Assembly: GCA_964582845.1 (NCBI GenBank)
Contig: CAZOTW010000005.1
Span: forward strand, 1 to 37,839
Direction: 5' to 3'
Source of the DNA: an uncultured Gammaproteobacteria bacterium
GTDB lineage: Bacteria > Patescibacteriota > Microgenomatia > UBA10105 > UBA927
DNA length: 37,839 nucleotides
Part shown: piece by piece, positions 652 to 37,033 of the stretch
Numbering within the stretch: position 1 is the first letter of the stretch
Layout: the number at the start of each line of letters is the position of its first letter
Notes under the pieces: generated by a model
The model's database searches: none
What the model was told of the DNA's origin: nothing
What the model saw: the letters and a program-made list of their open reading frames with translations, nothing else
Made by a program: the position numbers and the translations under genes

Positions 652-1371
652 ATGCCTTTAAAAAAGTCTAATGGAAATATGTATCCGTGGGTTACGCACA
701 CACACGCGGAACTCGGAGGGGAATGTTCTCACAAATGTTCGTATTGTTATGTTGACAATCCAAGATTTGGACGCGCTACACGTTATTGCGGAGAAAAAAG
801 GATAATAGAATCAGAGGCTAACACACGACTCGGTTCTGGCAATGTGATATTCAAAGAGCATATGAATGACCTATTTGCCAAAGATGTTCCGAAGTTTATT
901 GTTCAAACTGTTTTGAATCATTGCCAGAAATGGCCGGATAATACCTATGTGTTCCAATCTAAAAATCCCGGAAGGTTCCAATTTTTTAATTACCCGCAAT
1001 CCAAGTTAATTTTTGGGACTACAATTGAGACTAACAGAAATATCGACAAATCGATATCGGTGGCACCACAGCCAATCGACAGATTTACCGAAATGTGCCA
1101 AAGCTCAATGAGGTTCGTAGATAAGTTCATCACCATCGAACCGGTAATGGATTTCGACGTTGATATACTTGCTTCATGGATAGATATAATCAGACCGAAG
1201 TTTTTGAATCTTGGTGCAGATAGTAAAAACCATAGGTTGCCTGAACCGACAATAGAAAAGATATTTAAACTTGTTGCAAAATTGAAGGAATATGGAATTG
1301 AATTGCGAGAAAAACACAACCTTTCGAGACTGCTCGACGGAAAAATCCACGACGGCGAGGTTCCGGCATGA
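652..1371 (+). CDS. Radical-SAM-motif protein resembling the phage Gp37/Gp68 (DUF5131-like) family
   Basis: CSHKCSYC is a CX3CX2C motif near the N-terminus. The downstream pattern VIFKEHMNDLFAKDVP...YVFQSKNPGRF resembles the Gp37/Gp68 core. AAGGA lies 9 nt upstream of the ATG. Confidence 0.85.
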   Translation: MPLKKSNGNMYPWVTHTHAELGGECSHKCSYCYVDNPRFGRATRYCGEKRIIESEANTRLGSGNVIFKEHMNDLFAKDVPKFIVQTVLNHCQKWPDNTYVFQSKNPGRFQFFNYPQSKLIFGTTIETNRNIDKSISVAPQPIDRFTEMCQSSMRFVDKFITIEPVMDFDVDILASWIDIIRPKFLNLGADSKNHRLPEPTIEKIFKLVAKLKEYGIELREKHNLSRLLDGKIHDGEVPA

Positions 1372-3905: not shown

Positions 3906-4079
3906 TTATTGTTCTGCGCGCGCTTCTTCTTCGATTGCTTTTTTACGGGCAACGGCAACATGCTTGTGCTTGTAAACACGTTCGAGAAATTTATTGTATT
4001 TCTCATGATTGAGTTCCCCGCTTTTGACTTCGATGGCATAGCCTCCGCTTACATCAACAACAACCAATTCTACACTCAT
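3906..4079 (-). CDS. Small hypothetical protein (57 aa, not in ORF track)
   Basis: Hand translation gives MSVELVVVDVSGGYAIEVKSGELNHEKYNKFLERVYKHKHVAVARKKAIEEEARAEQ*. Its start overlaps the PAPS-reductase stop in an ATGA arrangement. Confidence 0.6.
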   Translation of the reverse strand: MSVELVVVDVSGGYAIEVKSGELNHEKYNKFLERVYKHKHVAVARKKAIEEEARAEQ

Positions 4080-4924
4080 ACAAAAACCTCCTTTGGTTCC
4101 TCAAAAATAAGGGTTTCTTGATTTTCGTTTGGCAATGAACCGGCCTGACCGGTTAGCCACCATCGCCAGTACTCTTCTGCTGTATTAATCCCATTAATAT
4201 CACAACGTTCGTCCCCGAACCGTTCGAACCACGCCTTTATCGCCTTTTCCCACGCGGCAACGATACGGGGATGCCACCGTCTGCTTTGTTCTTCAACTCC
4301 AGGGAGAGCGAGCGGACAAAGAACGCACCCGACACGTTTGAAGTTGAACGGTTCTTTGTAAAGAGGATTTATCGGAATGTTGTTTTCGTTAATATATTCC
4401 CACACCATTTCATCAGTCCAGTCGATGATGACATGGCAAAATCGTTTTGTTTTTGCCCGTATACACTGTTCGATAACTCGGTATCCTGATCGTCGCGCAG
4501 ATTCGGCGGCGCGAACCCCGGTAACAACCATATGTCCGGTTCCAAAATGTTCTTTGTAGTCCCGACAACACCATCTCCTGCCATTGCGAGAAGGAGGGGC
4601 AGTTCTTACTTGCTTTATTTTCTGAAGCAATGGAATTGTAGGGCGGTGTATTTCTACGTCGGGATATTCTTTCTTGATATGCCATATTGTTTCTGGTGCG
4701 TCTACGGTTGTAAGTGAATGATGGAACGTTGCCTTTACTCTAGCCGCCTTTGCAAGGTGGTAAATTACTGACGAGTCTTTCCCTCCTGAAATTCCAACCC
4801 AGTATCCGGCAGGATTCATGTTTAAAGCAATCGGTTCAAAAAGTTTCAACCGTTCTATTGCTATATTCACCATGTCACGTTCACCGAATAAATCGTTCGG
4901 GTGAAGTGCTGAATTTGTTTTCAT
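4076..4924 (-). CDS. Phosphoadenosine phosphosulfate (PAPS) reductase family / PP-loop ATPase protein
   Basis: PP-loop GISGGKDSS, the RRWCCRDYK motif and C-terminal GCVLCPLA are typical of phage PAPS-reductase-family proteins. Confidence 0.9.
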   Translation of the reverse strand: MKTNSALHPNDLFGERDMVNIAIERLKLFEPIALNMNPAGYWVGISGGKDSSVIYHLAKAARVKATFHHSLTTVDAPETIWHIKKEYPDVEIHRPTIPLLQKIKQVRTAPPSRNGRRWCCRDYKEHFGTGHMVVTGVRAAESARRSGYRVIEQCIRAKTKRFCHVIIDWTDEMVWEYINENNIPINPLYKEPFNFKRVGCVLCPLALPGVEEQSRRWHPRIVAAWEKAIKAWFERFGDERCDINGINTAEEYWRWWLTGQAGSLPNENQETLIFEEPKEVFV

Positions 4925-6996: not shown

Positions 6997-7980
6997 TCAA
7001 TACATTATTTTTAACGTGCCATTCGTATGGTACATTTGTCCATTCGAAACCCCGGCCGTACGGGCTGTAGCGCTATCAGCAAAATTACAGCTGTCCGCAA
7101 CCACCGATAAAAATACTCTTTTGTAAATGGTAACGTTACCATTTGGTTCGATGTAAACCCTACCTAAATTAGAGGTCCGTACGACCATGGGGTCAGCCCC
7201 TACTGTTCCAAACAAAGCGCCGTCCTGATCTGCGTAAAGTAGTGCGTTCCCATTTGCAAGCTGTATACTTCCTGCTGAACTGGTACTATATATATTACCG
7301 TCAAAAGAAACCGATCCAGTCCCCGATGTCCATTGACTTGACACCATGAGGTTGTTGCTTGCGTCATAATACCCGTTATACGACCTAATTCCGCCTCCGC
7401 CCACAACCAGGGATTGCGTATAATGGTTTTCAAGAGAGTCGTATTTTGCTGTGTCAAGAGCAATTCCTATGTTGCCGTTTCCGGCAACCATCAATCTGCA
7501 ATTATCACCGGTAAAAATTTGTACCGGGCTGTAGTCGCGCTGTCCAATTTGAAATGCACTGCCAACATGCCCTCCGACCCCTACAAAAAGGGCGGCCCCC
7601 TGATTGTACGGATTTCTACCTATCCTTCCCCTCCTGCCCGGCACAACCGCCGAGTCGGGCTCAAAATCAATAAATGAACTGGTGTATATGGAGGGAGTCA
7701 GTAAGATACCGGCATCTTGCGCCCCCGTACCGACTATTCGCAAAAGAAATTCATGCTCGGGGGTGGTACCCGATATTGTTAATACGTTGTCAAGCGAGCA
7801 CTTTCCATCAAAATGAAATCTCTCCGCATAATGAGTTAAGATCGAGTCGTACAGCCTTGCCCAATTGGGCAACGAATCCTTTGAATACCCATACTGCGGC
7901 AGTTTCCAATCTCCGACCTGATGGGACTGCCCGGCCGAAACTGCACACATAAACAGAATTGATAAAAAAATCTTTTTCAT
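6997..7980 (-). CDS. Secreted hypothetical protein (signal peptide)
   Basis: The N-terminus is MKKIFLSILFMCAVSAGQS. The body is Gly/Ser/Asn-rich and looks beta-rich. Confidence 0.75.
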   Translation of the reverse strand: MKKIFLSILFMCAVSAGQSHQVGDWKLPQYGYSKDSLPNWARLYDSILTHYAERFHFDGKCSLDNVLTISGTTPEHEFLLRIVGTGAQDAGILLTPSIYTSSFIDFEPDSAVVPGRRGRIGRNPYNQGAALFVGVGGHVGSAFQIGQRDYSPVQIFTGDNCRLMVAGNGNIGIALDTAKYDSLENHYTQSLVVGGGGIRSYNGYYDASNNLMVSSQWTSGTGSVSFDGNIYSTSSAGSIQLANGNALLYADQDGALFGTVGADPMVVRTSNLGRVYIEPNGNVTIYKRVFLSVVADSCNFADSATARTAGVSNGQMYHTNGTLKIMY

Positions 7981-7981
7981 A

Positions 7982-8272
7982 TTAACGATCCACCTCTTCG
8001 GATAAACTATCCAAGATCCTGTGAACCGAGGGTATCTCTAATAGGCATTTTTGAGCACCGATAGTTTTTTCCATGGAACTTATCAACTTTTTTTGTAATT
8101 CTATGAGACGCAGAAATTCCCCCACAGCGCCTATTATCGCCTTTTTATCTTGCTCGTCAATGCAATCTTTTGACATAATAGATGTTAAAGTACTATCAAA
8201 ACTATCGCCGAAAGGATTGTTTTGGCTAAAACATGCCCCTACAATAAGCAACACAGTCACAAATACTTTCAT
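7982..8272 (-). CDS. Small putative lipoprotein / secreted protein
   Basis: ATG 8272 is preceded by AAGGAG plus 7 nt. MKVFVTVLLIVGAC has a lipobox-like VGAC. The ORF-track start at 8323 is unsupported. Confidence 0.7.
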   Translation of the reverse strand: MKVFVTVLLIVGACFSQNNPFGDSFDSTLTSIMSKDCIDEQDKKAIIGAVGEFLRLIELQKKLISSMEKTIGAQKCLLEIPSVHRILDSLSEEVDR

Positions 8273-8283
8273 AGCATAGCTCC

Positions 8284-11200
8284 TTATGGTGTAAGTACCG
8301 CAGTCCCGCAACCGGTCCCGCAAATAATGTTTGTCGTTCTTGTATACCTCTTAATAGCAAACACAGCTCTAACCGATCCTGTGGTATGAAGGGCGCATGT
8401 TGTCGTTGCGTCTTCAAGATCGGTAATCTCGATTGTACCTGTCAATACTTCCCACTCAACAAAATCATATCCGGCCCCGTCGGTTGCCGTTAAATTAAAC
8501 CAAACTGCGCTATCATGCACTGTCGTTCCAGCAGGGTCAACAGATCCGCCACCAGAGACGGAGGTAGTAAGATTATATTGCGGTACATCCTCTTCATCCC
8601 CAAGCGATATCAAAGCAAGTACGGTGTCCACCCACAATGTATCTCCACCGGTGGCTCCGATATAGCTGGGAATTGTTACTCCGTCGAGATAGGGATGATT
8701 TCCTCCAATACCGCCATTGGCAACTGTCAAAGATCCATTTACGGTATGCGCGTTTCGAGTTTTTAGGTCACTGTTGGTATACAGCAAATTCCCGGCGTCA
8801 TATGCTTGTAAAAAATGTAAAATAGAACGTGAGTATCTCGTATTATACTCCGCCAATGTCAACCGATTTCCTTCATCCCCTGAGTAACCGAGATAAAAGA
8901 TCTGATCACCAACAGGATCTTCTCCATAAGGAAGATATCGATAGGTGTAATTGTTCCCGAGGTGCACAGAATCGTACCTCGCATAGCTATCGGAAGAGTA
9001 CGGCCTAGTGACGGTATAAATAGATTTATCCCATCCGTCTATATTGCGGCAAGAGTCATTTATGTTGTTGTACATGTATACATATGATAGTGTCTCTGGC
9101 GTCGTAACATCAGAAATATGGTCATTAGTATTATGCACCTGAATAACTACCCACGGTGCACGGTATATCGTATTGTTGTAAAAACACTGACGATAATTTG
9201 TAGCTTCATCGGCAGCTGTGCCCGTTATTGCGATAGAACAAGCTTTGAATATGTTATGATGCACCTGGGCAAAGTCGGTGCGCACATTGAGCGCCCTATA
9301 ATACGTCGTCCAATAATTGTGATGAACATTCACCCCGTAATATTTATAGTCATCTTCGTACCCTTCATCGGCCTGATCACGTCCGCATAAAATTCCTTCG
9401 TTTTTATCGTGGTAGCCATTAAGTGCGTAACCGAAATAATTGTACCTGATCGTGTTTCTTATGCGTGAACAACCAGGACCAGTATATGTAAAGCCGGTGT
9501 CGTACAAGGAATGTTCCTTGTAGTCACCAAATATTAAGATATGTCCGGGATTGATGTCATCGATCGGCGGAAGGCATCCATTTGAATCAAACATACAATA
9601 TTCGATTATGCACGAATCGTACAGATACCCTCGAATCCCAGCAGGGTTCTCTCCGGCCGACCCGCTCAGGTTGTTAAATATTTTCAGATGGGTAAATTTG
9701 AATGGACCAATATCAAGACTGATTCCTGCCGCGTCAATATTATCAACTTCCGCCCCGCCGGTTATTCCAAGAGAATCTATCTTCCAAAATGCAACCCCTA
9801 CAACGTCGTATGTACTATCCTGGCCATCCGTAATGGCCCCTATCTTTTGTCCAGTGTCACCACCATTAATTGTCGCCCATTCGCCAGAATAAGATTTCAA
9901 CAAGTTGTAATTTCCATCAATCCAGGCGGTTCCATTTTTTGCAGAAGGCAACGTCACTTTTTCGAAGTACGTTCCGGCTCGAACCAGTATGTGGTCTCCA
10001 GCGGCCATCTTATTAACAGCCCACTGGATGCGCCGGTAACATTGTTCCGACCCGCCAGAGCACGATCTCGTCGCGGGATTATATGTTGCGCAGCTATCGG
10101 TTATTGAGCTATCTGCATATATCGTGTCAATTGTCTCGGCAGCATAATACGTAAAAGCGCTTGCCAAAGTATCCCGCATACCATCGCTATTTTCGATGAT
10201 GACGTTCACCGCGCCGGCCGCATGAGCGGGGGCAATAAATCCGACCACTTCGTCCGACCACCAATACTCAGTTACTGCAGCACCATCGACTAATACGTAT
10301 CCGTCCCCTTGTGCTGCTTTAAATTTTGCACCTATCAAGTCAATCCTTGGCCCCCCGCCAGTTGGGCTGCATAACCACGCTGCCCGGGCGACAACAGGCG
10401 TATCAAGGGAGGCACCGCCCCCGGCCGTACGAACTGTATCCATCAGCGTCGTATCGTGCAGGGTCGTGGTCCCGTTGCTCAATCCATCAGTTATTGTCTT
10501 ATACCAATATTTTGTTCCCGCGGTGAGTGAGGCAGCTGCCATTGTCTTATTTTCTCCGGCAACGACAGTGTCGCTATCGGCAACGGACCATGCAGACAGC
10601 GTGTCCGCAGTTACCATAAGCCGTACCTTCGCTGTATCCCCTGTGAACCAACTATTCAGAGAAAGAAAACTCGGCGTATAGTTGCTGTTATTGTGTCGAA
10701 AACTAACGGCTATTGAACAGGCAACAGAAAATCCGTTTTCGGTAATCCCAGAAGTGTCTCCAAGATTGGAGAGATACTTTTTTGATCCTATGTTTGCGAA
10801 TGTAGAATTGCCTTTGTGGTAGTTCCAGATCCCGTCGTCAAGCAAGAACGACGACCCCCTGTTATAGAAGGTATCGGTAAAAACAATTCCTAAATTAACG
10901 GTAGTATCAAAAGCAGTATTAAATTCTGTCAACGACGAATCAATAGTCGCTCCATGCGTTTTCCATATTCCGATATCTCCAGAATCCAAGAAAAGGCATT
11001 TTTCAATATTTATATTCCAAGACGAGTCGTCGTTTGCGTTATTTGCGACATTGAGCATATAAATATCGTTACGACCACTAAAAGAAGTGTTTCTGATTGT
11101 TAAATTATGTATGGACGTGTCCGCACCGGTTTCATTCTGATGTATGTAAACGTTTCCCGATGACGACCCATGCAGAGTGTCCCACATGGTCACGCCATCT

Positions 11201-23089: not shown

Positions 23090-23554
23090 TTACGTGCTTG
23101 ATGCAACGAAGTTCGAAACCCCTGATTTGCGAATCGTTACCGTTGACACGACTTTGGTGTTAACAGCAAAGTCAAATGGGCAGTCCTTTACGAAACCTGA
23201 AAGGGTGTACCAAGTCCTTGTTGACGGCAAAACAAAGCCATCAGAATCTGCGGTCGGAGCAGTTGTATCGTCAGACCATCCTGCGGCCCAATCGACAACA
23301 GTACCAGCCGTAAACAGCTCAAATATCCTTACGTGGCTTGCGTTTGTCGGATCGAAGTTCAACTCTATCGTAGCTTCCGTTGGCGACCTTAATCCCGGTA
23401 AATAAGTCTTGTCGGTATCCGTAAGCGAGGTGGTTTCAATTTCATCAAAAGGTGCGCCGCCAGGATTAAAATTGGTTACTCCGGTAACTTCGACAACGGA
23501 ATCATCGACCGGCTCAATGAAATAGACCTGAGTTCCCTGCGTCTTGATAGCCAT
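23090..23554 (-). CDS. Major tail (tube) protein
   Basis: 154 aa at the canonical position. The N-terminal MAIKTQGTQVYF...VTGVTNFNPGG...ETTSLTD pattern is typical of siphovirus tube proteins. Confidence 0.8.
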   Translation of the reverse strand: MAIKTQGTQVYFIEPVDDSVVEVTGVTNFNPGGAPFDEIETTSLTDTDKTYLPGLRSPTEATIELNFDPTNASHVRIFELFTAGTVVDWAAGWSDDTTAPTADSDGFVLPSTRTWYTLSGFVKDCPFDFAVNTKVVSTVTIRKSGVSNFVASST

Positions 23555-23566
23555 GATGGTTTCTCC

Positions 23567-23932
23567 TTATCTGGCTGTTAAAAAGTTTACATCGAAAGAG
23601 TATCTATAGTGCTGAGTTTCAGCGTCTTTACTTTCTCCGCGCCAAGAAACTACATGCGCATTAGGTTCAATGGCGTCGCGTAATGTTTCCGCAGAATTTC
23701 TTGCCGAAGCCGCCGTTTTTCCGTACACGTCAACCTGAACCAAATACGTATCCATGTCGGGAGAGTTACCCATATAGTTTTCAGGGGTACCGCCTACGAC
23801 CTGCCAAACAGCATACGGAAGCACCGTCATTTCTGGTGCCCCCCCGAATGGAAAAACCCTTACCGGACTTGTCCCGAACGATGTCTGAACATCGCCGTCA
23901 ATTGATACTATTGCAAACAGTGGCGGATACAT
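23567..23932 (-). CDS. Tail terminator / tail completion protein (DUF3168-like)
   Basis: 121 aa. VFPFGGAP...LPYAVWQVVGG...VQVDVYGKT resembles the DUF3168 / gpU-position family. Confidence 0.7.
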   Translation of the reverse strand: MYPPLFAIVSIDGDVQTSFGTSPVRVFPFGGAPEMTVLPYAVWQVVGGTPENYMGNSPDMDTYLVQVDVYGKTAASARNSAETLRDAIEPNAHVVSWRGESKDAETQHYRYSFDVNFLTAR

Positions 23933-24408
23933 TACGCCGCCACCTTTGCCGCTTTTTTTATTGCGCGGTCGATTGATTTTTTGTACTGTTCGACAAATTC
24001 GCCGGTAGCCGAAGAAATATTACTTTCAAGCGCTGGCCTCATAAACGGATCTGCTGGCATTCTTTCAGTTCCGAATTCCAATAGTCGCCAGTGCGGAGTT
24101 GGTGCGTTCGGCGAAACATCTCCACCATCCTTCAAAAGTGACCCGTGCTTTACTCCTACGCGAAACATAAGATTTCCGTTTCGCTTGAAGGTCCGATTGC
24201 TAAATCTTACGGCGATATTGTCGGAAATACTTCTGCCTGTTTTCGGATCATCGATTCTTTCCGCACCTTGCTTTGCTGCCTTGGCAACAACGTTTGCCGC
24301 TCTCCTGAGTGCAAATCTTCCACCCTTATATTTAACATCGTTTGTTATCGATGCAAACCTGCCTAATAATTCATCGATTCCTTGCAGCCCGAATTCTGTT
24401 TTATTCAT
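23932..24408 (-). CDS. HK97 gp10-like neck protein
   Basis: RRAANVVAKAAKQ ... HWRLLEFGTERMPADPFMRPA matches the gp10 family signature (EFGT...PF.rPa). Confidence 0.8.
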   Translation of the reverse strand: MNKTEFGLQGIDELLGRFASITNDVKYKGGRFALRRAANVVAKAAKQGAERIDDPKTGRSISDNIAVRFSNRTFKRNGNLMFRVGVKHGSLLKDGGDVSPNAPTPHWRLLEFGTERMPADPFMRPALESNISSATGEFVEQYKKSIDRAIKKAAKVAA

Positions 24409-24739
24409 CTGTCACCTCTGCAAGCATCAGCGTTAAATATTCAAGCCCGGATTCCTTATCCGGCAGCGGTGGCCCGACTATCTCATACAATTTACTTCGG
24501 AAAGAAATACGCATTGCAGCGGTTACGTCAGAACGGTAACGAATAACGGAGCGTACCGACGTTTGACTCTGATTACTCGATGCTGCAATAAACTCCTTTG
24601 TTGAATACGGCTCAAACGATCCCCACACAATCGCAAGTTCCGACCATACTGTTTCCATATCGCCAGTATCTGAATCCTGCTCCTGATCCAGTTCAAGTAT
24701 CGTTAAACGATGCCTTAATTTTCCTGCTTCAAGCGGCAA
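24401..24739 (-). CDS. Head-tail adaptor (head closure, HK97 gp9 / SPP1 gp16-like)
   Basis: GKLRHRLTILE...VWSELAIVWGSFEP...VIRYRSDVTAAMRI...LYEIVG follows the Phage_H_T_join pattern. Confidence 0.8.
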   Translation of the reverse strand: MPLEAGKLRHRLTILELDQEQDSDTGDMETVWSELAIVWGSFEPYSTKEFIAASSNQSQTSVRSVIRYRSDVTAAMRISFRSKLYEIVGPPLPDKESGLEYLTLMLAEVTDE

Positions 24740-25439
24740 CGTTCACCCCGCTGATAATCCATTTTTTATAAATATCAATATCATTTCCAATCCAAGATCT
24801 TAAATCCATTGGATCGCCGAATGTATCTCGATGTCCTACCCCTATACCCTTCCTGCCGGGCAACCCTTTTATACCAACAACCATGCGGGTATTTTTTATA
24901 ATTTTTTTACTCCCCTTGAACATTCTCCATAAATGTATGTCAATAAATTTATGGTTGATTTTTGCCATACCTTTAAAACAATTTATCGCATTACCCTTCA
25001 TAGCGGTACTGCAAAGCCCTGAATGGATATCATTATCGCACAATCTACCACGTCCAGTGCTAACGTTATAATAAGCAGCCGGAGATTCACCAACAAGGTC
25101 AAAATTTAAAATATTTTCATAAACTACGCTTAAATATTCCGGCGAATACCAGTCGTCATCTTCAATAACAACCAGCCTGTTTTCGTTTTTAACAAGTCCT
25201 AAACACGCAAGAATATTTCTCGCCTGTGTATTTGATCCGGTTTTCCAAAACGGTTTAGGCCGAACTGACTCTATGGTCCATCCTTGTCTTAAAAATGTAA
25301 TTGGTTGTTCGATTGTACCGTCATCGACAACAATCCATCGTACTGATCCTGTAAACGTCTGTCTAAACATCAGAGATTCACAAATAGACCACGCTTCTGG
25401 ACGTTCCCCTGTGGTTGTCAACAGTGTCAAATCTTCCAT
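24729..25439 (-). CDS. GT-A fold glycosyltransferase (family-2-like)
   Basis: RWIVVDDGT and LVVIEDDDWY (DXD) motifs. Its stop overlaps the adaptor start by 11 nt. Confidence 0.75.
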   Translation of the reverse strand: MEDLTLLTTTGERPEAWSICESLMFRQTFTGSVRWIVVDDGTIEQPITFLRQGWTIESVRPKPFWKTGSNTQARNILACLGLVKNENRLVVIEDDDWYSPEYLSVVYENILNFDLVGESPAAYYNVSTGRGRLCDNDIHSGLCSTAMKGNAINCFKGMAKINHKFIDIHLWRMFKGSKKIIKNTRMVVGIKGLPGRKGIGVGHRDTFGDPMDLRSWIGNDIDIYKKWIISGVNVAA

Positions 25440-26053
25440 TACAATACGTCCTTTAATTCAGCGCGGTAGTACAGCGGTAAAGATGTTTCACGCGAACAAT
25501 TGATTACCATAACTCCAAGTCTTTTAAAATCACTATATGCGGCAGTAAAATGATCAATCCATTTCGGAAAATTAAAATCCTTTCTGAGTGGATCTTCGTG
25601 CGCACCGTGCCAATGGGCCGTCCCGTATTTATCGTTCATATCGTAGCCAAGCAGTATTATTTTTTTTGCACCGAATTGATGTGCCAACCCTACAGCGCAA
25701 AAACCAGAGTTTCCACCCCAAGAAATAATACCTGGCTTATTGCTCAAACCTTTAATTTTTTTATTGTACGGACAATGATGAATATAGTCGTTTATGTACT
25801 CACTATACCCTGTCCATAGCTCACCTTTACATGTGTTCATTATATCTCGAAAATGAACATTCCACCAGTCGTGATCGCTTGAGTAATGAACATTGGCCCA
25901 TGGAGCTAGCCTGTACGTTGAATTTACAGTAATAACCTTTGCTTTATATCTACAATACTCAGCGTCCTCGCTTGTCATGCTTGGCCCGCTTGCCATGCAT
26001 ACAACCGTCTCGCCTCTCCATCGCTTCCAATATTTACGATCAAATTTTATCAT
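25439..26053 (-). CDS. Maf / CstII-like (DUF115, MptE-like fold) putative glycosyltransferase, paralog 1
   Basis: The motif series is VCMASGPSMT, VITVNS, GGNSGFCAVGLAHQFGAKKIILLGYDM and HWHGAH. It shares an identical 18-nt stretch (25598-25615) with paralog 2 (26792-26809). Confidence 0.65.
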   Translation of the reverse strand: MIKFDRKYWKRWRGETVVCMASGPSMTSEDAEYCRYKAKVITVNSTYRLAPWANVHYSSDHDWWNVHFRDIMNTCKGELWTGYSEYINDYIHHCPYNKKIKGLSNKPGIISWGGNSGFCAVGLAHQFGAKKIILLGYDMNDKYGTAHWHGAHEDPLRKDFNFPKWIDHFTAAYSDFKRLGVMVINCSRETSLPLYYRAELKDVL

Positions 26054-26624
26054 TGCAAAAATTCCTATCAGGCTTTTTGGCTACTGCAAAAATTTGATGC
26101 GGAGCATTTTTTAAAAAAATAGTATCATCATGATTCTTTAAATGAAGAACTTCGTTTCCACCATATTTTGTATTTATGTCAACAAATCCTGCATCTGAAA
26201 GCAGCGTTTTTAAACCTGAATCAGTATACCTGTAATAATCATCTGGGTAGCCATGAACATGAAAGCAGAACAGAGTGGTAATAATTATTGTTCCGCCGGG
26301 CTGAAGAACTCGGAACATCTCTGGAATTGCAATCCACGGTCTTTTGACGTGCTCCAAAACCTCAGAGCATAATATACCTGTAAATTTATTTGACCAATCG
26401 ACAGGAAGCGAATGGGTGTCGGCAACAACATCAACACCATACCCTTCCTGCATATCAATTCCGGTCCAATTTCCTGTTGCTAAATCATGATTATTTATCC
26501 ACCAGCAATCAGGATTATGAAGCCTACTGCCAACTTCGAGAACATTATCGCCAAGTTCAGATGAGAACCTCTCAATCCACCACCGTATTCGTCCGCGAAT
26601 GCTATCAATTGGCATTTTGTTCAT
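26040..26624 (-). CDS. Class I SAM-dependent methyltransferase
   Basis: VLEVGSRLH (motif I-like), DVVADTHSLP, ILCSEVLEHV and LQPGGTIIITT follow the Methyltransf_11-type pattern. Confidence 0.8.
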   Translation of the reverse strand: MNKMPIDSIRGRIRWWIERFSSELGDNVLEVGSRLHNPDCWWINNHDLATGNWTGIDMQEGYGVDVVADTHSLPVDWSNKFTGILCSEVLEHVKRPWIAIPEMFRVLQPGGTIIITTLFCFHVHGYPDDYYRYTDSGLKTLLSDAGFVDINTKYGGNEVLHLKNHDDTIFLKNAPHQIFAVAKKPDRNFCNDKI

Positions 26625-27163
26625 ACAAGCATCTCTTCAAGGTTTGCTTGTTCAAAACAACTAAGCTCAGTATATCTGCTACAATTATAAATTTTTATTC
26701 CTTGCTTTTTTGCTATATCAGAAACACGCTTAAATTGATCGTGCCATTTCTCAATTTTCGATACTGTCGGATTCCTCAAAACCGGTTCAGTGTGCGCACC
26801 GTGCCAATGAATGCCGTTTTTAATAGAACAATCGTACCCGAGAAGCGCAATTGATTTAAAGCCCTTTGACATCCCGAATTGTATCGCCCGCATTCCAGAA
26901 TTGTACGGTCCTGCGGCAATGTGGTAGTGCAATTTATATGTGTTAGCGGCTCTGTCGGAGCACGTCCACTTTTCGGCTGGTATATTTATTTTTGAAAAAT
27001 TTGCTTTCCACCATTTAGCGTCACCGGCATATAGGTAGGTGCAAGACTGCGCCATTTCCCATGAATTATTTACAGCAACGGTTTTTATTCCGCTTTTTTT
27101 AACAAGCTCACAATCTGAGGCTGTTAAGCTCGGACCCGATGCTATGCAAAAAAGATCAATCAC
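26621..27163 (-). CDS. Maf / CstII-like (DUF115, MptE-like fold) putative glycosyltransferase, paralog 2
   Basis: GTG start. It carries the same motif series as paralog 1: CIASGPSLT, VAVNNS, YNSGMRAIQFGMSKGFKSIALLGYD and HWHGAH. Confidence 0.65.
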   Translation of the reverse strand: MIDLFCIASGPSLTASDCELVKKSGIKTVAVNNSWEMAQSCTYLYAGDAKWWKANFSKINIPAEKWTCSDRAANTYKLHYHIAAGPYNSGMRAIQFGMSKGFKSIALLGYDCSIKNGIHWHGAHTEPVLRNPTVSKIEKWHDQFKRVSDIAKKQGIKIYNCSRYTELSCFEQANLEEMLV

Positions 27164-27195
27164 GGTATATCTGCCTTAGTTCAATAAATTACTAA

Positions 27196-27804
27196 TCACA
27201 AAAAAGTATCACGCAGAATACAGCTTGATAAAAGATTCGACACTGTTTTGTTTATTTTATAGTCTTCGCTCTTTAAAACTTGGCCCTCTCTGTTTGCATA
27301 CAAGTCGCCACAAATTAATTTAATGGCCTGTTTGTATTTTTTTGGAATCGACGATACTTCGTCGCTATCGTATTCCCACCCGCAGACAAACCGTATTTCG
27401 ATCGGATTTGACGGATACTCGGTAAATGACGGCCATGTGGCGCCATGTGGCAAAACTATTTTACCACACTGATCACCATTCGTCTCGACAATGTAATCGG
27501 TTCCTGCGGTCATAGTCGTTACGGTTCCAGCCGAATCGGTATATTTTACGTGGGCAACACTTTGAAGGTTTCCAAAAGGTATTTTTACATAATTGCTACT
27601 TGGAAAGGCATCAATAAAGTAATTCCACGTTTGAGTAAACAGCTTACGCGAAGTTATGTCTTCTACAATTTCCCTTGCAGCCTCTATTATAGCTAAAAGT
27701 TCAGCGCCGGAATCAGAATCGTACTCATCTATGCGTAAATGAGCAGCCAATTCGGTTAATGAGACGGGTTCTAATCCCGGCGCTGTTTCAATGACAAGAA
27801 CCAT
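27196..27804 (-). CDS. Head-tail connector (gp6-like, Phage_connect_1-type)
   Basis: PVSLTELAAHLRIDE...LLAIIEAAREIVEDITSRKLFTQTW is the typical N-terminal signature. Confidence 0.8.
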   Translation of the reverse strand: MVLVIETAPGLEPVSLTELAAHLRIDEYDSDSGAELLAIIEAAREIVEDITSRKLFTQTWNYFIDAFPSSNYVKIPFGNLQSVAHVKYTDSAGTVTTMTAGTDYIVETNGDQCGKIVLPHGATWPSFTEYPSNPIEIRFVCGWEYDSDEVSSIPKKYKQAIKLICGDLYANREGQVLKSEDYKINKTVSNLLSSCILRDTFL

Positions 27805-27807
27805 ATA

Positions 27808-28347
27808 TTATACTGCGGATTCCGCGTAGGCACCTGTTGACATAGGGACATAAAACAAGTGGGCGGTAGCTGTTATTGTTGCAGCCTGTGAAGCATCACT
27901 TGATTGCATACCTATAACCCCGACCGTATTTGCTCCTGCTGATGTTATTCCACCAAGAATGTGTATTTTCCCTGCCGTTTCAACATCCGACAGCCCTGCC
28001 GAATCAGTAATTACGGCAGCAGTTGCAACAGCGCCACCAGCTAAAACGATTCTTCCATATGCCTCAAGGTTTGCAATACTTGCACATTTGCCACACATGG
28101 CATTTAGGGTGATGACTGGGGTTGTAAATGTCGCATAAAACAATACTTGTGTAGCGTTAGCATCGGCAGCGGCCGTAAGCTCTATAAAAAGCTGTTTTAC
28201 TGCAATGCGTCCGTAAATATTAAACAGACTGGTATTTACTCCGCCAGTGGCGAAGTTAGCGGCAACCAACCCGCTGTTGGTTGTTGAAACACGCAGACCT
28301 AAAATCATGTCCGCTATCCTGTCTCTTGTGGATTGATTATAGTTCAC
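27808..28347 (-). CDS. Ala/Thr/Gly-rich hypothetical head-module protein (179 aa)
   Basis: GTG start with AAGAGG SD. It lies between the capsid and connector genes. No family recognised. Confidence 0.7.
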   Translation of the reverse strand: MNYNQSTRDRIADMILGLRVSTTNSGLVAANFATGGVNTSLFNIYGRIAVKQLFIELTAAADANATQVLFYATFTTPVITLNAMCGKCASIANLEAYGRIVLAGGAVATAAVITDSAGLSDVETAGKIHILGGITSAGANTVGVIGMQSSDASQAATITATAHLFYVPMSTGAYAESAV

Positions 28348-28456
28348 TTTTTACCTCTTTCTTGTCGGCTTTTTTTGGTGAAGAAGATTCTTTGCTTTTG
28401 TTAATCTCCTCTTTTACGATATCCCTGATTCTTTCGAGATCGGTTGCGTCTAACAT
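28337..28456 (-). CDS. Micro-ORF (39 aa, not in ORF track), Lys/Glu-rich
   Basis: ATG 28456 is preceded by GGAGGATATAAA. Translation: MLDATDLERIRDIVKEEINKSKESSSPKKADKKEVKSEL. Confidence 0.4.
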   Translation of the reverse strand: MLDATDLERIRDIVKEEINKSKESSSPKKADKKEVKSEL

Positions 28457-28503
28457 TTTATATCCTCCAAAAAGTATGCGGGATGTTACTCCCGCAAGTT
28501 AAA

Positions 28504-28977
28504 CTACTTCAGAGCAGTTACGGAACGGTTGCCGGTATAGCGAGGTTCAAGAACTGCAACGCAGTGACAAATGCCGGATGATCCTGCTGCCACCGTAACG
28601 GTAAGCCACGGTTTGCTTGCTGCCATTGCCGAAGCGCTGATTTCAACGACGGCCATGAGATTGCTTGCGGCGGTAATCGAAGCCGCAGAAGCGTGAGTAG
28701 TCCACGCAGCGAGAACATCGCACGATGACGCGCTGCCTAGCACTGCCGTACCTATTGCGGCCCCACCCTTTGCGTACTGCAACGGCACTGCGGTTGTTTT
28801 TGCGGCTTCCGTCGCTCCGCACGTCGGGGTGATGGTAATGTCAGTTGTCACAGCGCCGAAGGTAAAAATAAGCGTCGCTCTGTGATAATTTGCCATATTG
28901 ATGCTGTCGCAATCGGTCCCGGTACTCACGTTTGCGCTGTTGAGAATGGGAACGATTTTAAGTTTTTCAGAGAACAT
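28504..28977 (-). CDS. Ala/Thr/Ser-rich hypothetical head-module protein (157 aa), candidate decoration protein
   Basis: AAGGAG SD 7 nt upstream of the ATG. It lies immediately downstream of the major capsid gene. Confidence 0.7.
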   Translation of the reverse strand: MFSEKLKIVPILNSANVSTGTDCDSINMANYHRATLIFTFGAVTTDITITPTCGATEAAKTTAVPLQYAKGGAAIGTAVLGSASSCDVLAAWTTHASAASITAASNLMAVVEISASAMAASKPWLTVTVAAGSSGICHCVAVLEPRYTGNRSVTALK

Positions 28978-36023: not shown

Positions 36024-36188
36024 ATGGCCAAGGTAACAAGAGAACATTTCATAACAGCAAAAGAAAAAGGTTGGGGCATAAAAGAAATTGCCACGGCTTG
36101 TGGTGTGTCGAAACAGGCTGTTATTCACATGCGCAAAAAATACTTTCCTCAAGGTTTTCCACCTTCCGAAGAAACCGCAGGAAAATAA
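36024..36188 (+). CDS. Small helix-turn-helix protein (54 aa), the only plus-strand gene in the right 35 kb
   Basis: AGGAGG (36012-36017) lies 6 nt before ATG 36024. GIKEIATACGVSKQAVIHMRKK is a classic HTH. The 3' end overlaps the convergent PAPS-reductase gene by 40 nt. Confidence 0.6.
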   Translation: MAKVTREHFITAKEKGWGIKEIATACGVSKQAVIHMRKKYFPQGFPPSEETAGK

Positions 36189-37033
36189 ACCCTTCTTTCC
36201 ATTTTATCAAAAATGCCAGGATCGTTTTTGTACGGTTTTGGCATTTCTTCATTCCATGCTTTTAATTTTTTCCACATATCAGGATAATATTTACAAAGTT
36301 TTGCAAGGTCTGTTTGATTTTGAAGTGGACAACACCAGCACGACACCCGACTAAAATGATCGTATAGTCCTGACCATCTATAACCTCGGTCAAAACAGTA
36401 TTTTAGGCAATCCTTTTCAGTCATGCCCCATTCAACCAGCGGGTATTCGTTTGACTGGAAATGATCGTGCGTTACATGGAATCCCTTTTGTGCTGCCTTA
36501 ATTACTCGTTTTGGTTCATCAACTGCAAACCCAAAATAAAAAATATATGGCCTGTATTCTCTTAACGCCTGCCTGATTGTTAATAATTTAAGCAGCGTAC
36601 ACCAACGCATCATCGGTGTTGGCCACCCATTAATTTCTTTGTTGTTTGGCTGCAATGTTTTGGCCATATCATAAAAATCTACCTTATGCTTAACTCTTTG
36701 TATTTTAATACCAGTATTTTTTTCTACAAGGTTTATATGCTCTGCCATTTGAGGCCATTCAAAAGAACCACAGTCAAAATATATTACCTTGTCCACCCTT
36801 CTTTTTTCTTCGATAAGCTTTAGAAGCATTGCGGTAGAATCTTTGCCCCCAGAAAAAGAAACTATTCGCATAGCATCATTTTCAATCTCTCTTTTCTTCT
36901 CGTAAAAACCAGACCTCTTCTCACAAACCTTACACCACGCCCAATGACCATCCGGCGCTTTGGTGTTTTTGTTAAACATCGAAATCGGTTTTCTTTCCTT
37001 GCAGAACATGCATTCTTTAAGGCTCAAATTCAT
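36149..37033 (-). CDS. PAPS reductase family / PP-loop protein with N-terminal zinc-ribbon (IbrA / DndC-like)
   Basis: CMFCKERK...WCKVCEKR, PP-loop SFSGGKDST, RWCT, and a C-terminal CWCCPL. Confidence 0.88.
   Translation of the reverse strand: MNLSLKECMFCKERKPISMFNKNTKAPDGHWAWCKVCEKRSGFYEKKREIENDAMRIVSFSGGKDSTAMLLKLIEEKRRVDKVIYFDCGSFEWPQMAEHINLVEKNTGIKIQRVKHKVDFYDMAKTLQPNNKEINGWPTPMMRWCTLLKLLTIRQALREYRPYIFYFGFAVDEPKRVIKAAQKGFHVTHDHFQSNEYPLVEWGMTEKDCLKYCFDRGYRWSGLYDHFSRVSCWCCPLQNQTDLAKLCKYYPDMWKKLKAWNEEMPKPYKNDPGIFDKMERRVYFPAVSSEGGKP

What the first reader, a model, noticed from the sequence alone, without database searches (positions are those of the whole stretch)
24729..27163. Four-gene glycosyltransferase/methyltransferase cassette translationally wired into the head-neck operon
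Seen in sequence:
- Four genes sit between the gp6-like connector (27196-27804) and the head-tail adaptor (24401-24739), a junction that is normally contiguous in HK97-like phages.
- The genes are a Maf/CstII-like paralog (26621-27163), a class I SAM methyltransferase (26040-26624), a second Maf/CstII-like paralog (25439-26053) and a GT-A glycosyltransferase with DDG and EDDD motifs (24729-25439).
- They are chained by start/stop overlaps: ATGA at 26621-26624, 14 nt at 26040-26053, 1 nt at 25439, and 11 nt into the adaptor gene. They must therefore be co-expressed with the late structural genes.
- The two paralogs share ASGPS(M/L)T, xNSG...K(K/S)I(I/A)LLGYD and an invariant HWHGAH, plus an identical 18-nt DNA stretch (25598-25615 and 26792-26809).

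Established knowledge: the GxGPSL ... GxD layout is characteristic of the DUF115/MptE-like fold used by flagellin nonulosonic-acid transferases (Maf) and CstII-type sialyltransferases. To my knowledge, virion glycosylation by structural-operon glycosyltransferases has so far been reported in some actinobacteriophages.

Inference:
- This may be a virion-protein glycosylation and O-methylation system using host nucleotide sugars, since no sugar-biosynthesis genes are present in the window.
- Candidate substrates are the Ala/Thr/Ser-rich proteins at 27808-28977 or the tail tube.
- DNA hypermodification is an alternative.
- A Maf-type version embedded in a head-neck module would be undescribed as far as I know.
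Basis: partly seen in the sequence, partly recalled or inferred. Interest (0 to 1): 0.8.

Follow-up and report, generated by a model that had tools for sequence, protein, structure and literature searches.

The report
Sugar-adding gene island in phage neck
Four enzyme genes wedged between two neck genes of an uncultured phage most likely attach a methylated sugar chain to a virion protein. The same kind of island, with no function reported in the literature I could search, occurs in hundreds of phages of Gram-negative bacteria, including the classic phages P1 and D3.

Summary
Four overlapping minus-strand genes (24729-27163) sit between the Ad1 connector and the Hc1 head-closure gene, with the stated overlaps, motifs and 18-nt repeat.

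- 24729-25439 is a GT-A glycosyltransferase with an invariant EDDD motif (AlphaFold model pLDDT 94; Foldseek against the PDB 7e-9).
- 26040-26624 is a class I SAM methyltransferase.
- The two paralogs are small single-domain members of the DUF115/MptE-like superfamily (phrog_4603, the P1 PmgO family). No link to CstII was found. The best PDB fold matches are weak hits to thiamine pyrophosphokinases.

The cassette is a real insertion: relatives with 43-60% identical Ad1 have Ad1 abutting Hc1. It is not unique. DUF115-like-led islands occur in more than 585 IMG/VR loci and in D3, PAJU2, P1, CcrColossus and Eowyn. Their partners vary: GT-A, GT2, GT9-like and TOD1 transferases, and FkbM/TylF-type O-methyltransferases.

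Best reading (about 0.5): late, cytoplasmic glycosylation plus O-methylation of a virion protein, using host sugar donors. I found no published function for these genes. It is a new variant of a known kind, and testable in P1 and D3.

The parts
27196..27804 (-). Head-tail connector/adaptor Ad1 (gp6-like); upstream flank of the insertion
   Evidence: PF05135 2.9e-8; phrog_442 1.7e-20. In the cassette-less relatives L090-L092 and L094-L099 this gene abuts or lies close to Hc1.
26621..27163 (-). DUF115/MptE-like paralog A (180 aa; phrog_4603; P1 PmgO family); always the first gene of such islands; proposed initiating sugar transferase
   Evidence: phrog_4603 3.9e-51. PF01973 only 15.7 bits, below the cutoff. 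52% identical to PAJU2 gp10 and 44% to P1 PmgO. AlphaFold2 pLDDT 95.2, Rossmann-like alpha/beta fold. BFVD neighbours labelled MptE-like/DUF115, TM 0.63-0.80.
26040..26624 (-). Class I SAM-dependent methyltransferase (194 aa); proposed O-methylation of the glycan
   Evidence: PF08241 7.7e-9, 36.5 bits against a cutoff of 21.2; weak UbiG-like O-methyltransferase hit. Orthologue in the Lysobacter prophage L100, 9.5e-80, next to the same GT-A family.
25439..26053 (-). DUF115/MptE-like paralog B (204 aa), about 33-35% identical to paralog A; keeps all 24 invariant family residues
   Evidence: phrog_4603 1.9e-40; PF01973 3.7e-6, below the cutoff. BLASTP against paralog A 1.5e-27. Included in the A1 invariant-column analysis.
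24729..25439 (-). GT-A fold glycosyltransferase (236 aa) with invariant DDG and EDDD motifs
   Evidence: AlphaFold2 pLDDT 94.2. Foldseek PDB: WrtF fucosyltransferase 7.3e-9, SpsA, TarP, GlcAT-P, TM 0.5-0.6. Invariant D39 D40 G41 and E93-D96. PF00535 only 15 bits, below the cutoff.
24401..24739 (-). Head closure/completion protein Hc1; downstream flank; its start overlaps the GT gene by 11 nt
   Evidence: PF05521 9.5e-24; phrog_25 6.4e-30. Overlap verified.
23090..24408 (-). Neck1 (23932-24408), tail completion/terminator (23567-23932) and tail tube protein (23090-23554). This D3-type module co-occurs with the island in nearly all surveyed loci. The tail tube protein is a candidate acceptor (inference only).
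   Evidence: PF04883 and phrog_5 for Neck1. Homologues of all three lie next to DUF115-like genes in most of the 80 loci. Tail tube C-termini mostly end in short Ser/Thr tips.
25598..25615 (.). 18-nt stretch identical to 26792-26809; encodes the HWHGAH motif of paralog B
26792..26809 (.). 18-nt stretch identical to 25598-25615; encodes the HWHGAH motif of paralog A

Best explanation
The segment is an accessory 'glycan island' inserted between the Ad1 and Hc1 neck genes of an HK97-like siphophage known only from metagenomes.

Shown:
- It encodes two small DUF115/MptE-like-superfamily enzymes, a class I SAM methyltransferase and a GT-A glycosyltransferase.
- All four are soluble proteins.
- The genes are chained by start/stop overlaps to each other and to Hc1, with no internal terminator.

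Inferred: they are made late, in the cytoplasm, together with virion proteins.

Proposed mechanism (inferred):
- The DUF115-like enzymes act as sugar transferases, by analogy with Maf, the one glycan-related branch of that superfamily. One of them starts a glycan on Ser/Thr of a virion protein.
- The GT-A enzyme extends the glycan from a host nucleotide sugar.
- The methyltransferase O-methylates a sugar.
- The result is a short methylated glycan on the virion surface, with the tail tube or capsid protein as the likeliest acceptor.

The island is one instance of a very large, modular class of DUF115-like-led islands in structural operons of phages of Gram-negative bacteria.
For: - Gene identities.
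- Coupling and absence of a terminator.
- No transmembrane segments.
- Insertion status: relatives with Ad1 abutting Hc1.
- Glycan context from homologous islands, in which the DUF115-like gene comes first:
  - GT2 + GT2 + TOD1/MUCI70 in the same Ad1|Hc1 slot (L004, L008).
  - A DUF115-like-FkbM methyltransferase fusion + a TylF-type O-methyltransferase + GT9 (L018).
  - A DUF115-like-TylF fusion in the same slot (P0317).
  - A DUF115-like fusion to the PAJU2 gp11-like domain (P0241, L033). The profile of that domain best matches heptosyltransferase II and CcrColossus 'family 9 glycosyl transferase'.
  - CcrColossus gp126-gp131: DUF115-like, NDP-sugar transferase, methyltransferase, GT9.
  - Lysobacter prophage L100: DUF115-like - methyltransferase - GT-A, with the same methyltransferase and GT-A families as here.
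- These islands sit within or next to structural gene modules in most contexts examined: neck in D3 and PAJU2, end of the tail genes in CcrColossus, beside a late promoter and the tail/baseplate genes in P1. In jumbo phage Eowyn the neighbouring genes are unannotated.
- Precedent: phage-encoded glycosylation of the C-termini of capsid and tail tube proteins in mycobacteriophages (Freeman et al. 2023, as summarised in PMC12619734).
- PAJU2 ORF010, the DUF115-like protein, is labelled 'structural protein' by its depositors. This hints at physical association with virions.
Against: - No direct evidence for any glycan, acceptor or donor.
- The DUF115-like model has no convincing solved-structure neighbour. 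The best PDB E-value is 1.7e-3 and TM is at most 0.45. The most consistent matches are thiamine pyrophosphokinases, not Maf or CstII. The only biochemically defined small member of PF01973 is a pyrophosphokinase (MptE).
- PF01973 and PF00535 scores of the window proteins are below Pfam's cutoffs.
- P1 pmgO, pmgP and pmgQ are dispensable for plaque formation (PMC10695390). The P1 virion proteome paper never mentions them or glycosylation of virion proteins (PMC9024508).
- The Ser/Thr tips of the tail tube protein are not universal among island-bearing phages.
- The host is unknown.
Confidence: 0.5

Rival explanations
1. The island does modify something with a glycan, but the DUF115-like proteins are not glycosyltransferases. 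They would be MptE/thiamine-pyrophosphokinase-like (pyro)phosphotransferases that activate or phosphorylate a sugar or an acceptor hydroxyl. The GT-A enzyme alone would transfer sugar.
For: - The best consistent PDB fold matches are thiamine pyrophosphokinases (prob 0.99-1.0, TM 0.43-0.45).
- PF01973 is named after the pterin diphosphokinase MptE.
- The family has three invariant Asp (D17, D48, D111) and a G-x-D-x-S element, LLGYDCS, reminiscent of the GDxDS motif of pyrophosphokinases (the motif comparison is from memory).
- P1 places a Ser/Thr phosphatase gene (ppp) between pmgP and pmgQ.
Against: - The fold matches are weak and cover a generic Rossmann-like core.
- The gene is constantly first in islands otherwise made only of glycosyltransferases and sugar-type O-methyltransferases. 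It is also fused to GT9-like and TylF/FkbM domains. Both facts fit a transferase more simply.
- The invariant HWH motif is compatible with the catalytic His of metal-independent CMP-sugar transferases (established for CstII His188; from memory).
Confidence: 0.15
2. The enzymes act on the host envelope (LPS core or another surface glycan) late in infection rather than on the virion. For example, they could mask receptors so that progeny are not lost on debris, or they could act as a serotype-conversion module.
For: - The partner repertoire (GT9 heptosyltransferase-like, GT2, methyltransferases) resembles LPS-core and O-antigen gene sets.
- All cultured carriers infect Gram-negative bacteria.
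- D3 is a serotype-converting phage (record description).
Against: - Serotype-conversion genes are normally expressed from the prophage, with their own promoters, and include membrane proteins. Here the genes are translationally chained into the late neck operon, have no promoter excess and encode soluble proteins.
- Lytic jumbo phages also carry the island.
- Newly made LPS would have little time to reach the surface before lysis (inference).
Confidence: 0.1
3. The island hypermodifies phage DNA (glycosylation and methylation of bases).
For: Phage glycosyltransferases are classically DNA-modifying (summary in PMC12619734). The window carries two PAPS-reductase-like genes of unknown role elsewhere.
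Against: - No hydroxymethyl-pyrimidine or other base-activation genes lie next to the island.
- The location is in late structural operons, not replication modules.
- P1 and D3 carry homologous genes, yet glycosylated DNA has not been reported for them (own knowledge).
- The methyltransferase is a small-molecule/O-methyltransferase-like class I enzyme, not a DNA methyltransferase family.
Confidence: 0.05
4. The DUF115-like proteins are primarily structural or morphogenetic neck/virion components with a degenerate enzyme fold.
For: - PAJU2 ORF010 is one of only four ORFs labelled 'structural protein' by its depositors.
- P1 homologues were named 'putative morphogenetic'.
- One relative is fused to Ig-like Big domains (P0274).
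Against: - There are 24 invariant, mostly polar or catalytic-type residues across 46 sequences.
- The genes are absent from close relatives whose necks are complete.
- They are dispensable in P1 and not mentioned in the P1 virion proteome paper.
- The context of P0274 is a rearranged prophage remnant beside an invasin gene.
Confidence: 0.07

Closest known systems
Uncharacterised homologous islands in cultured phages: Pseudomonas D3 orf7/orf12/orf13, PAJU2 gp10-gp12, Escherichia P1 pmgO/pmgP/pmgQ, Caulobacter CcrColossus gp126-gp131, Klebsiella Eowyn
   Same: - Same DUF115-like family (PAJU2 gp10 52% identical, PmgO 44%, D3 orf7 1.5e-35, CcrColossus gp126 1.5e-22).
- P1 also has two paralogs (PmgP 9.6e-9).
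- The DUF115-like gene is accompanied by a methyltransferase and a glycosyltransferase-like gene.
- The islands lie within or beside structural gene modules.

   Different: - The partner genes differ. D3, PAJU2 and Eowyn use a GT9-like gp11 family and a PF13489 methyltransferase. PmgQ and CcrColossus gp129 are not in the window's GT-A family.
- The slot differs: Hc1|Neck1 in PAJU2, split in D3, outside the neck in P1 and in the jumbo phages.
- I found no reported function for any of them.
Virion glycosylation of mycobacteriophages (Freeman et al. 2023, Cell Host Microbe)
   Same: Phage-encoded glycosyltransferases are proposed or shown to decorate virion proteins, with glycans on the C-termini of capsid and tail tube subunits (as summarised in PMC12619734).
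   Different: - The hosts are actinobacteria there; all cultured carriers of this family infect Gram-negative bacteria.
- No DUF115-like component is known there (own knowledge, not tested).
- Here nothing has been shown biochemically.
Maf (motility accessory factor) flagellin nonulosonic-acid transferases, DUF115/PF01973
   Same: Same Pfam superfamily signal, namely an N-terminal G-P-S loop and a C-terminal G-x-D segment. Both would be protein O-glycosylating enzymes acting in the cytoplasm before assembly (established knowledge for Maf).
   Different: - The window proteins are 180-204-aa single domains rather than multi-domain proteins of about 600 aa.
- There is no flagellin or CMP-pseudaminic/legionaminic acid gene context.
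- No Maf structure appears among the top PDB matches.
MptE (archaeal 6-hydroxymethylpterin diphosphokinase) and thiamine pyrophosphokinase
   Same: Small Rossmann-like domain. PF01973 takes its name from MptE. Thiamine pyrophosphokinases are the most consistent PDB fold matches.
   Different: TM is only 0.43-0.45. There is no folate or thiamine gene context. Every genomic neighbour points to glycan chemistry.
CstII-type (GT42) sialyltransferases; the PHROG label 'alpha-2,3-sialyltransferase'
   Same: Only the PHROG annotation and a faint fold match to a GT29 sialyltransferase of a giant virus (TM 0.49, E 0.026).
   Different: There is no Pfam CST-I hit, no PDB sequence match and no CstII among the top 50 PDB fold matches. 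The label should not be taken as a function.

Membership tests
PF01973 MptE-like / DUF115 superfamily (paralogs A and B) | Match to the Pfam model above its gathering score (34.6 bits) | tested here: not met
   Paralog A scores 15.7 bits and paralog B 27.3 bits. However, 42 of 46 family members give sub-threshold hits (best 3.5e-8). Tandem-fused close relatives P0251, P0261 and P0270 score 41.5-44.6 bits.
PF01973 MptE-like / DUF115 superfamily (paralogs A and B) | Shared fold with proteins assigned to the family | tested here: met
   The AlphaFold2 model (pLDDT 95.2) matches BFVD proteins annotated MptE-like or DUF115 at TM 0.63-0.73, E 1.8e-6 to 1.5e-4.
Maf flagellin glycosyltransferases | Multi-domain architecture of about 600 aa with the DUF115 domain in the centre | tested here: not met
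   The proteins are 180 and 204 aa, and the model is a single alpha/beta domain.
Maf flagellin glycosyltransferases | Gene context with flagellin and CMP-nonulosonic-acid synthesis genes | tested here: not met
   None was found in the window ORFs scanned or in the 80+ related loci.
Maf flagellin glycosyltransferases | Transfer of a CMP-activated sugar to Ser/Thr of a protein | not testable with these tools
   This needs enzyme assays.
CstII / GT42 sialyltransferases | Sequence or fold match to CstII-family proteins | tested here: not met
   No PF06002 hit at E<=1. The profile search of PDB sequences found nothing relevant. No CstII among the top 50 Foldseek PDB hits.
GT-A fold glycosyltransferases (24729-25439) | GT-A fold | tested here: met
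   Foldseek PDB found 235 hits at E<=1e-3. The top hits are WrtF, SpsA, TarP and GlcAT-P, with TM 0.5-0.6.
GT-A fold glycosyltransferases (24729-25439) | Conserved acidic DxD-type metal/nucleotide-sugar motif | tested here: met
   E93-D94-D95-D96 and D39-D40 are invariant in 43 homologues.
GT-A fold glycosyltransferases (24729-25439) | Pfam Glycos_transf_2 above its gathering score (23.3 bits) | tested here: not met
   The score is 15 bits, E 0.025. Some homologues carry a precomputed PF00535 hit.
Class I SAM-dependent methyltransferases (26040-26624) | Pfam methyltransferase-domain match above its gathering score | tested here: met
   PF08241 scores 36.5 bits (cutoff 21.2) and PF13489 30 bits (cutoff 27).
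Phage virion-glycosylation systems (actinobacteriophage type) | Glycosyltransferase genes inside the structural (late) operon | tested here: met
   The genes overlap each other and Hc1, with no terminator between them.
Phage virion-glycosylation systems (actinobacteriophage type) | Glycan covalently attached to capsid or tail proteins | not testable with these tools
   This needs MS or glycoprotein staining of virions.

The most novel reading that the evidence does not exclude
DUF115-like-led islands are a general virion-glycosylation system of phages of Gram-negative bacteria. It would be mechanistically distinct from the actinobacteriophage one. Small Maf-like transferases would start a glycan on tail tube or capsid proteins from CMP-activated ulosonic acid, with CMP-Kdo as the donor. 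GT9-like, GT-A and GT2 enzymes and O-methyltransferases would then extend and cap it. Virions, including those of P1 and D3, would thus wear an LPS-core-like, phage-lineage-specific glycan. The Kdo idea rests only on my own knowledge that CMP-Kdo is the one CMP-sugar common to the known hosts, and on the recurrent GT9-like partners.
Probability: 0.12. Interest if true: 0.85.

Novelty: new variant of a known kind. Interest (0 to 1): 0.55.

Why it matters
If these islands glycosylate virions, surface glycosylation would be common in phages of Gram-negative bacteria. The DUF115-like family alone has about 7,100 sequence clusters at 50% identity, and it includes model and therapy-relevant Pseudomonas, Klebsiella and E. 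coli phages. So far virion glycosylation is documented only in actinobacteriophages, where it affects antibody recognition. It would also give the first function to the long-unassigned P1 genes pmgO, pmgP and pmgQ and to D3 orf7, orf12 and orf13. It would define a minimal, single-domain branch of the DUF115 superfamily. It would also explain a recombination hot spot in HK97-type neck modules. The question is directly testable in P1, where the genes are dispensable.

Tried and rejected
- DNA-level search of the region against 50,697 phage genomes found no match.
- Profile searches of PDB sequences with the DUF115-like and GT-A alignments, and with the tandem relative P0270, found nothing useful.
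- NCBIfam gave no family for either paralog or for the GT. The only hint was PmgP against the Kdo transferase WaaZ at E=0.1, which is too weak to use.
- The Foldseek PDB search with the paralog A model gave no confident neighbour, so 'sialyltransferase' could not be confirmed.
- I tested whether the window's GT-A family equals P1 PmgQ or CcrColossus gp129. It does not at HMM level.
The 179-aa protein also occurs in cassette-less relatives. Neither that protein nor the 157-aa protein has any Pfam, PHROG or NCBIfam hit.
- I looked for a compositional anomaly. Cassette GC is 0.39-0.41 against 0.434 for the window, which is within the range of other structural genes, so it is not diagnostic.
- Literature searches for pmgO/P/Q, DUF115 + phage, sialyltransferase + phage, PAJU2 and virion glycosylation found no functional study of this family.
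- The PAJU2, D3 and Freeman et al. primary papers are not held.
- The DUF115-like-Ig-domain fusion (P0274) looked like evidence for virion display, but it sits in a rearranged prophage remnant beside an invasin gene, so I set it aside.

Full report
**1. What is in the sequence**

The region 24401-27804 carries six consecutive minus-strand ORFs:

| Coordinates | Size | Identity | Evidence |
|---|---|---|---|
| 27196-27804 | 202 aa | Ad1 connector | PF05135; phrog_442/40 |
| 26621-27163 | 180 aa | paralog A | phrog_4603 |
| 26040-26624 | 194 aa | methyltransferase | PF08241 |
| 25439-26053 | 204 aa | paralog B | phrog_4603 |
| 24729-25439 | 236 aa | glycosyltransferase | GT-A fold |
| 24401-24739 | 112 aa | Hc1 head-completion | PF05521; phrog_25 |

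These identities come; the GT-A fold comes.

- The 18-mer is the in-frame HWHGAH codon string of both paralogs. Given the shared residues it has P of about 0.01 under the contig's codon usage. It is real but of little consequence.
- Upstream lie terminase, portal, protease, HK97-type capsid (PF05065) and two unassignable Ala/Ser/Thr-rich proteins.
- Downstream lie Neck1, a tail-completion protein, the tail tube protein, chaperones and the tape measure.
- No minus-strand terminator of note lies inside the cassette, and promoter-like sites are not in excess over shuffles.
- None of the four proteins has a transmembrane-like stretch. Their GC (0.39-0.41) is only slightly below the window mean of 0.434.
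- Proteins identical to the window's paralog A (HJZ06332.1), and close cluster mates of its GT and capsid proteins, are deposited under a 'Patescibacteria group bacterium' MAG, on a contig of about 55.5 kb. IMG/VR holds a 55.3-kb viral contig whose paralog A and Ad1 are 99% identical. The window is therefore an uncultured phage, probably mis-binned, with an unknown host.

**2. The four proteins**

GT-A glycosyltransferase (24729-25439):
- The family has more than 457 homologues.
- D39 D40 G41, E93-D96, H139, a KGxPGR loop and H203 are invariant.
- The AlphaFold2 model (pLDDT 94.2) matches GT-A glycosyltransferases: WrtF fucosyltransferase at 7.3e-9, then SpsA, TarP and GlcAT-P, with TM 0.5-0.6.
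- This confirms the GT-A fold and a DxD-type motif, although the Pfam GT2 score is below the cutoff.

Methyltransferase (26040-26624):
- It passes Pfam thresholds for class I SAM methyltransferases.
- It resembles small-molecule O-methyltransferases such as UbiG only weakly.

The two paralogs (BLASTP 33% identical over 192 aligned residues, 35% in the family alignment):
- Both hit phrog_4603, labelled 'alpha-2,3-sialyltransferase', at 3.9e-51 and 1.9e-40. Both hit PF01973 (MptE-like, formerly DUF115) only below the cutoff.
- In a 46-sequence alignment, 24 columns are invariant in both paralogs: the ASGPS loop, D17, N32, Y45, W51 W52, N88 G90, G109 D111, H119 H121 and N160-C-S. Both therefore look catalytically intact.
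- The paralog A model is confident (pLDDT 95.2), but it has no convincing neighbour in the PDB. The best E-value is 1.7e-3 and TM is at most 0.45. The most consistent matches are thiamine pyrophosphokinases. Neither Maf nor CstII is in the top 50. Sequence-profile searches of the PDB are empty.
- Against predicted viral structures, the model matches phage proteins annotated MptE-like or DUF115 at TM 0.63-0.73. It matches a giant-virus GT29 sialyltransferase only faintly (TM 0.49, E 0.026).
- 42 of 46 family members give weak PF01973 hits. Tandem-fused relatives pass the Pfam cutoff.
- Conclusion: these are small single-domain members of the DUF115/MptE-like superfamily. 'CstII-like' is unsupported, and 'Maf-like' holds only at superfamily level.

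**3. How common the island is, and what travels with it**

- The DUF115-like profile finds 7,146 clusters (at 50% identity) at E<=1e-3, and more than 585 loci in IMG/VR.
- In GenBank phages it occurs in 69-78 records, all from Gram-negative hosts. These include Pseudomonas D3, PMG1 and PAJU2; Escherichia P1 and P7 (PmgO); Citrobacter phiNP; giant Caulobacter and Brevundimonas phages; and jumbo Klebsiella, Serratia, Xanthomonas and Stenotrophomonas phages.
- I annotated the 80 closest IMG/VR loci with HMMs of the window's proteins. The DUF115-like gene sits in the neck module, either between Ad1 and Hc1 (as here) or between Hc1 and Neck1 (as in PAJU2). It is the first gene of a variable set.

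Arrangements seen:

| Arrangement | Where |
|---|---|
| DUF115-like - methyltransferase - DUF115-like - GT-A (the window's own) | L005, L006, L007, L017 |
| DUF115-like - GT-A - GT2 - TOD1/MUCI70 | L004, L008, L011, L012 |
| DUF115-like - PAJU2 gp11-like - PF13489 methyltransferase | about 45 loci; also D3, PAJU2, Eowyn |
| DUF115-like, DUF115-like-FkbM methyltransferase fusion, TylF-type methyltransferase, GT9 | L018 |
| Versions with radical-SAM or 2OG-oxygenase genes | L030, L043 |

Further points:
- The gp11-like family is fused to the DUF115-like domain in some phages (P0241, L033).
- The gp11-like profile best matches heptosyltransferase II (1PSW, E 0.41, across the nucleotide-sugar domain) and CcrColossus 'family 9 glycosyl transferase'.
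- A DUF115-like-TylF fusion sits in exactly the Ad1|Hc1 slot.
- A Lysobacter sp. Root96 prophage carries Hc1 - DUF115-like - methyltransferase - GT-A - Neck1. Its methyltransferase (9.5e-80) and GT-A (8e-119) are orthologous to the window's.
- CcrColossus has, after its tail genes, DUF115-like, an NDP-sugar transferase, a methyltransferase and a GT9.
- P1 has two DUF115-like paralogs (PmgO 1.5e-60, PmgP 9.6e-9) plus PmgQ, annotated as a glycosyltransferase. They lie downstream of a late promoter and next to tail and baseplate genes.
- Conversely, nine loci whose Ad1 is 43-60% identical to the window's have Ad1 abutting or close to Hc1, with no cassette. They also lack the D3-type Neck1 and tail tube genes.

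The cassette is thus an insertion, the slot is a recombination hot spot, and the island tends to travel with the D3-type neck and tail module.

**4. Mechanism**

Shown:
- enzyme classes;
- late-operon chaining;
- soluble products;
- a glycan-type gene neighbourhood in many independent lineages.

Inferred:
- The island builds a short glycan, with at least one O-methyl group, on a protein made at the same time and place, that is, a virion protein.
- The fixed first position of the DUF115-like gene, and its fusions to GT9-like and sugar-type O-methyltransferase domains, suggest that it performs the first, acceptor-specific transfer. This would parallel Maf on flagellin (established knowledge).
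- The GT-A enzyme would extend the glycan and the methyltransferase would cap it.
- Two paralogs could mean two sugars, two linkages or two acceptor sites. P1 shows the same duplication.
- No sugar-nucleotide synthesis gene was seen in the window ORFs scanned, so host donors are implied.
- Speculation, from my own knowledge: CMP-Kdo is the only CMP-sugar common to the known hosts, and GT9-like partners recur, so a Kdo/heptose-type glycan is conceivable.
- Candidate acceptors:
  - The tail tube protein co-travels with the island and mostly ends in Ser/Thr tips, though not always.
- An unexplained lead: PAJU2's depositors labelled only four ORFs 'structural protein' (capsid, tail tube, a tail fibre-sized protein and the DUF115-like ORF010). 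The P1 virion proteome paper does not mention PmgO, PmgP or PmgQ at all (PMC9024508).

**5. Rivals**

- A pyrophosphokinase-type chemistry for the DUF115-like proteins cannot be excluded, given the PDB fold matches and the name-giving enzyme MptE.
- Modification of the host envelope is argued against by late-operon coupling and the soluble products.
- DNA hypermodification is argued against by the location, the absence of base-activation genes, and the presence of homologous genes in P1 and D3.
- A purely structural role is argued against by the invariant catalytic-type residues, dispensability in P1 (PMC10695390) and absence from close relatives.

**6. Comparison and novelty**

- Virion glycosylation by phage enzymes is documented for mycobacteriophages (Freeman et al. 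2023, as summarised in PMC12619734).
- I found no study of the DUF115-like islands. In databases they are 'hypothetical', 'putative morphogenetic', 'structural protein' or the unverified PHROG label 'alpha-2,3-sialyltransferase'.
It is not true for gene content, because D3, PAJU2 and hundreds of uncultured phages carry it.
- I classify the finding as a new variant of a known kind: probable virion glycosylation with a different enzyme set and host range. This window is one ordinary instance of a large, unexplored class.

**7. Verdict**

- The best explanation has a confidence of about 0.5.
- Interest is 0.55. The value lies less in this locus than in the class it belongs to, which is directly testable in P1 and D3.

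Noticed in passing
window 4076-4924 (-) and 36149-37033 (-): Two separate PAPS-reductase-like genes lie in the non-structural parts of the contig (phrog_424 6e-31; PF01507 50.2 bits). Their role is unknown. Such genes in phages are sometimes linked to DNA or nucleotide modification.
   Followed up: no
window 652-1371 (+): A DUF5131 (phage Gp37/Gp68-type) protein, just at the Pfam cutoff (29.0 against 28.9 bits), with a faint radical-SAM-like N-terminus.
   Followed up: no
window 27808-28347 (-) and 28504-28977 (-): Two Ala/Ser/Thr-rich proteins between the capsid gene and Ad1 have no Pfam, PHROG or NCBIfam match. A terminator-like hairpin (28496-28477, minus strand) lies between them. The 179-aa protein also occurs in relatives that lack the cassette (L090, L097, L099).
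   Followed up: partly
window 23090-23554 (-) and homologues in L001-L084: Tail tube proteins of island-bearing phages mostly end in short Ser/Thr tips (...VASST, ...KSSS, ...KSTS, ...LST). This recalls the C-terminal glycosylation sites of mycobacteriophage tail tubes. Some end in ...IPKV instead.
   Followed up: partly
L104 / L085 (PAJU2 AP009624, ORF010 at 7780-8349 of the record): The DUF115-like protein is one of only four ORFs that the PAJU2 depositors call 'structural protein'. The label seems to have spread to Klebsiella phage Eowyn. The primary paper could not be read.
   Followed up: partly
L003 (P1, record 79592-82150): P1 pmgO and pmgP are both DUF115-like. They are separated from the glycosyltransferase-like pmgQ by ppp, a lambda-type Ser/Thr phosphatase. 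All are reported dispensable.
   Followed up: partly
L001 6516-7343 (PAJU2 gp11) and 22 homologues (alignment A4): A widespread family of about 275 aa, with no Pfam hit, has an N-terminal GLGD motif and four invariant C-terminal Cys/His residues. It looks like a divergent GT9 (heptosyltransferase-type) enzyme and is sometimes fused to the DUF115-like domain.
   Followed up: partly
whole window; NCBI proteins HJZ06328-HJZ06335: The phage contig is deposited as part of a 'Patescibacteria group bacterium' MAG. Its D3-like tail module and Gram-negative-type relatives make a binning error likely.
   Followed up: no
L107 2029-3699: A DUF115-like domain is fused to Big_1/Big_13 Ig-like domains. It lies next to a 487-aa GT2 and lysis genes, beside transposases and an invasin-like gene. 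It is possibly a rearranged prophage remnant.
   Followed up: no
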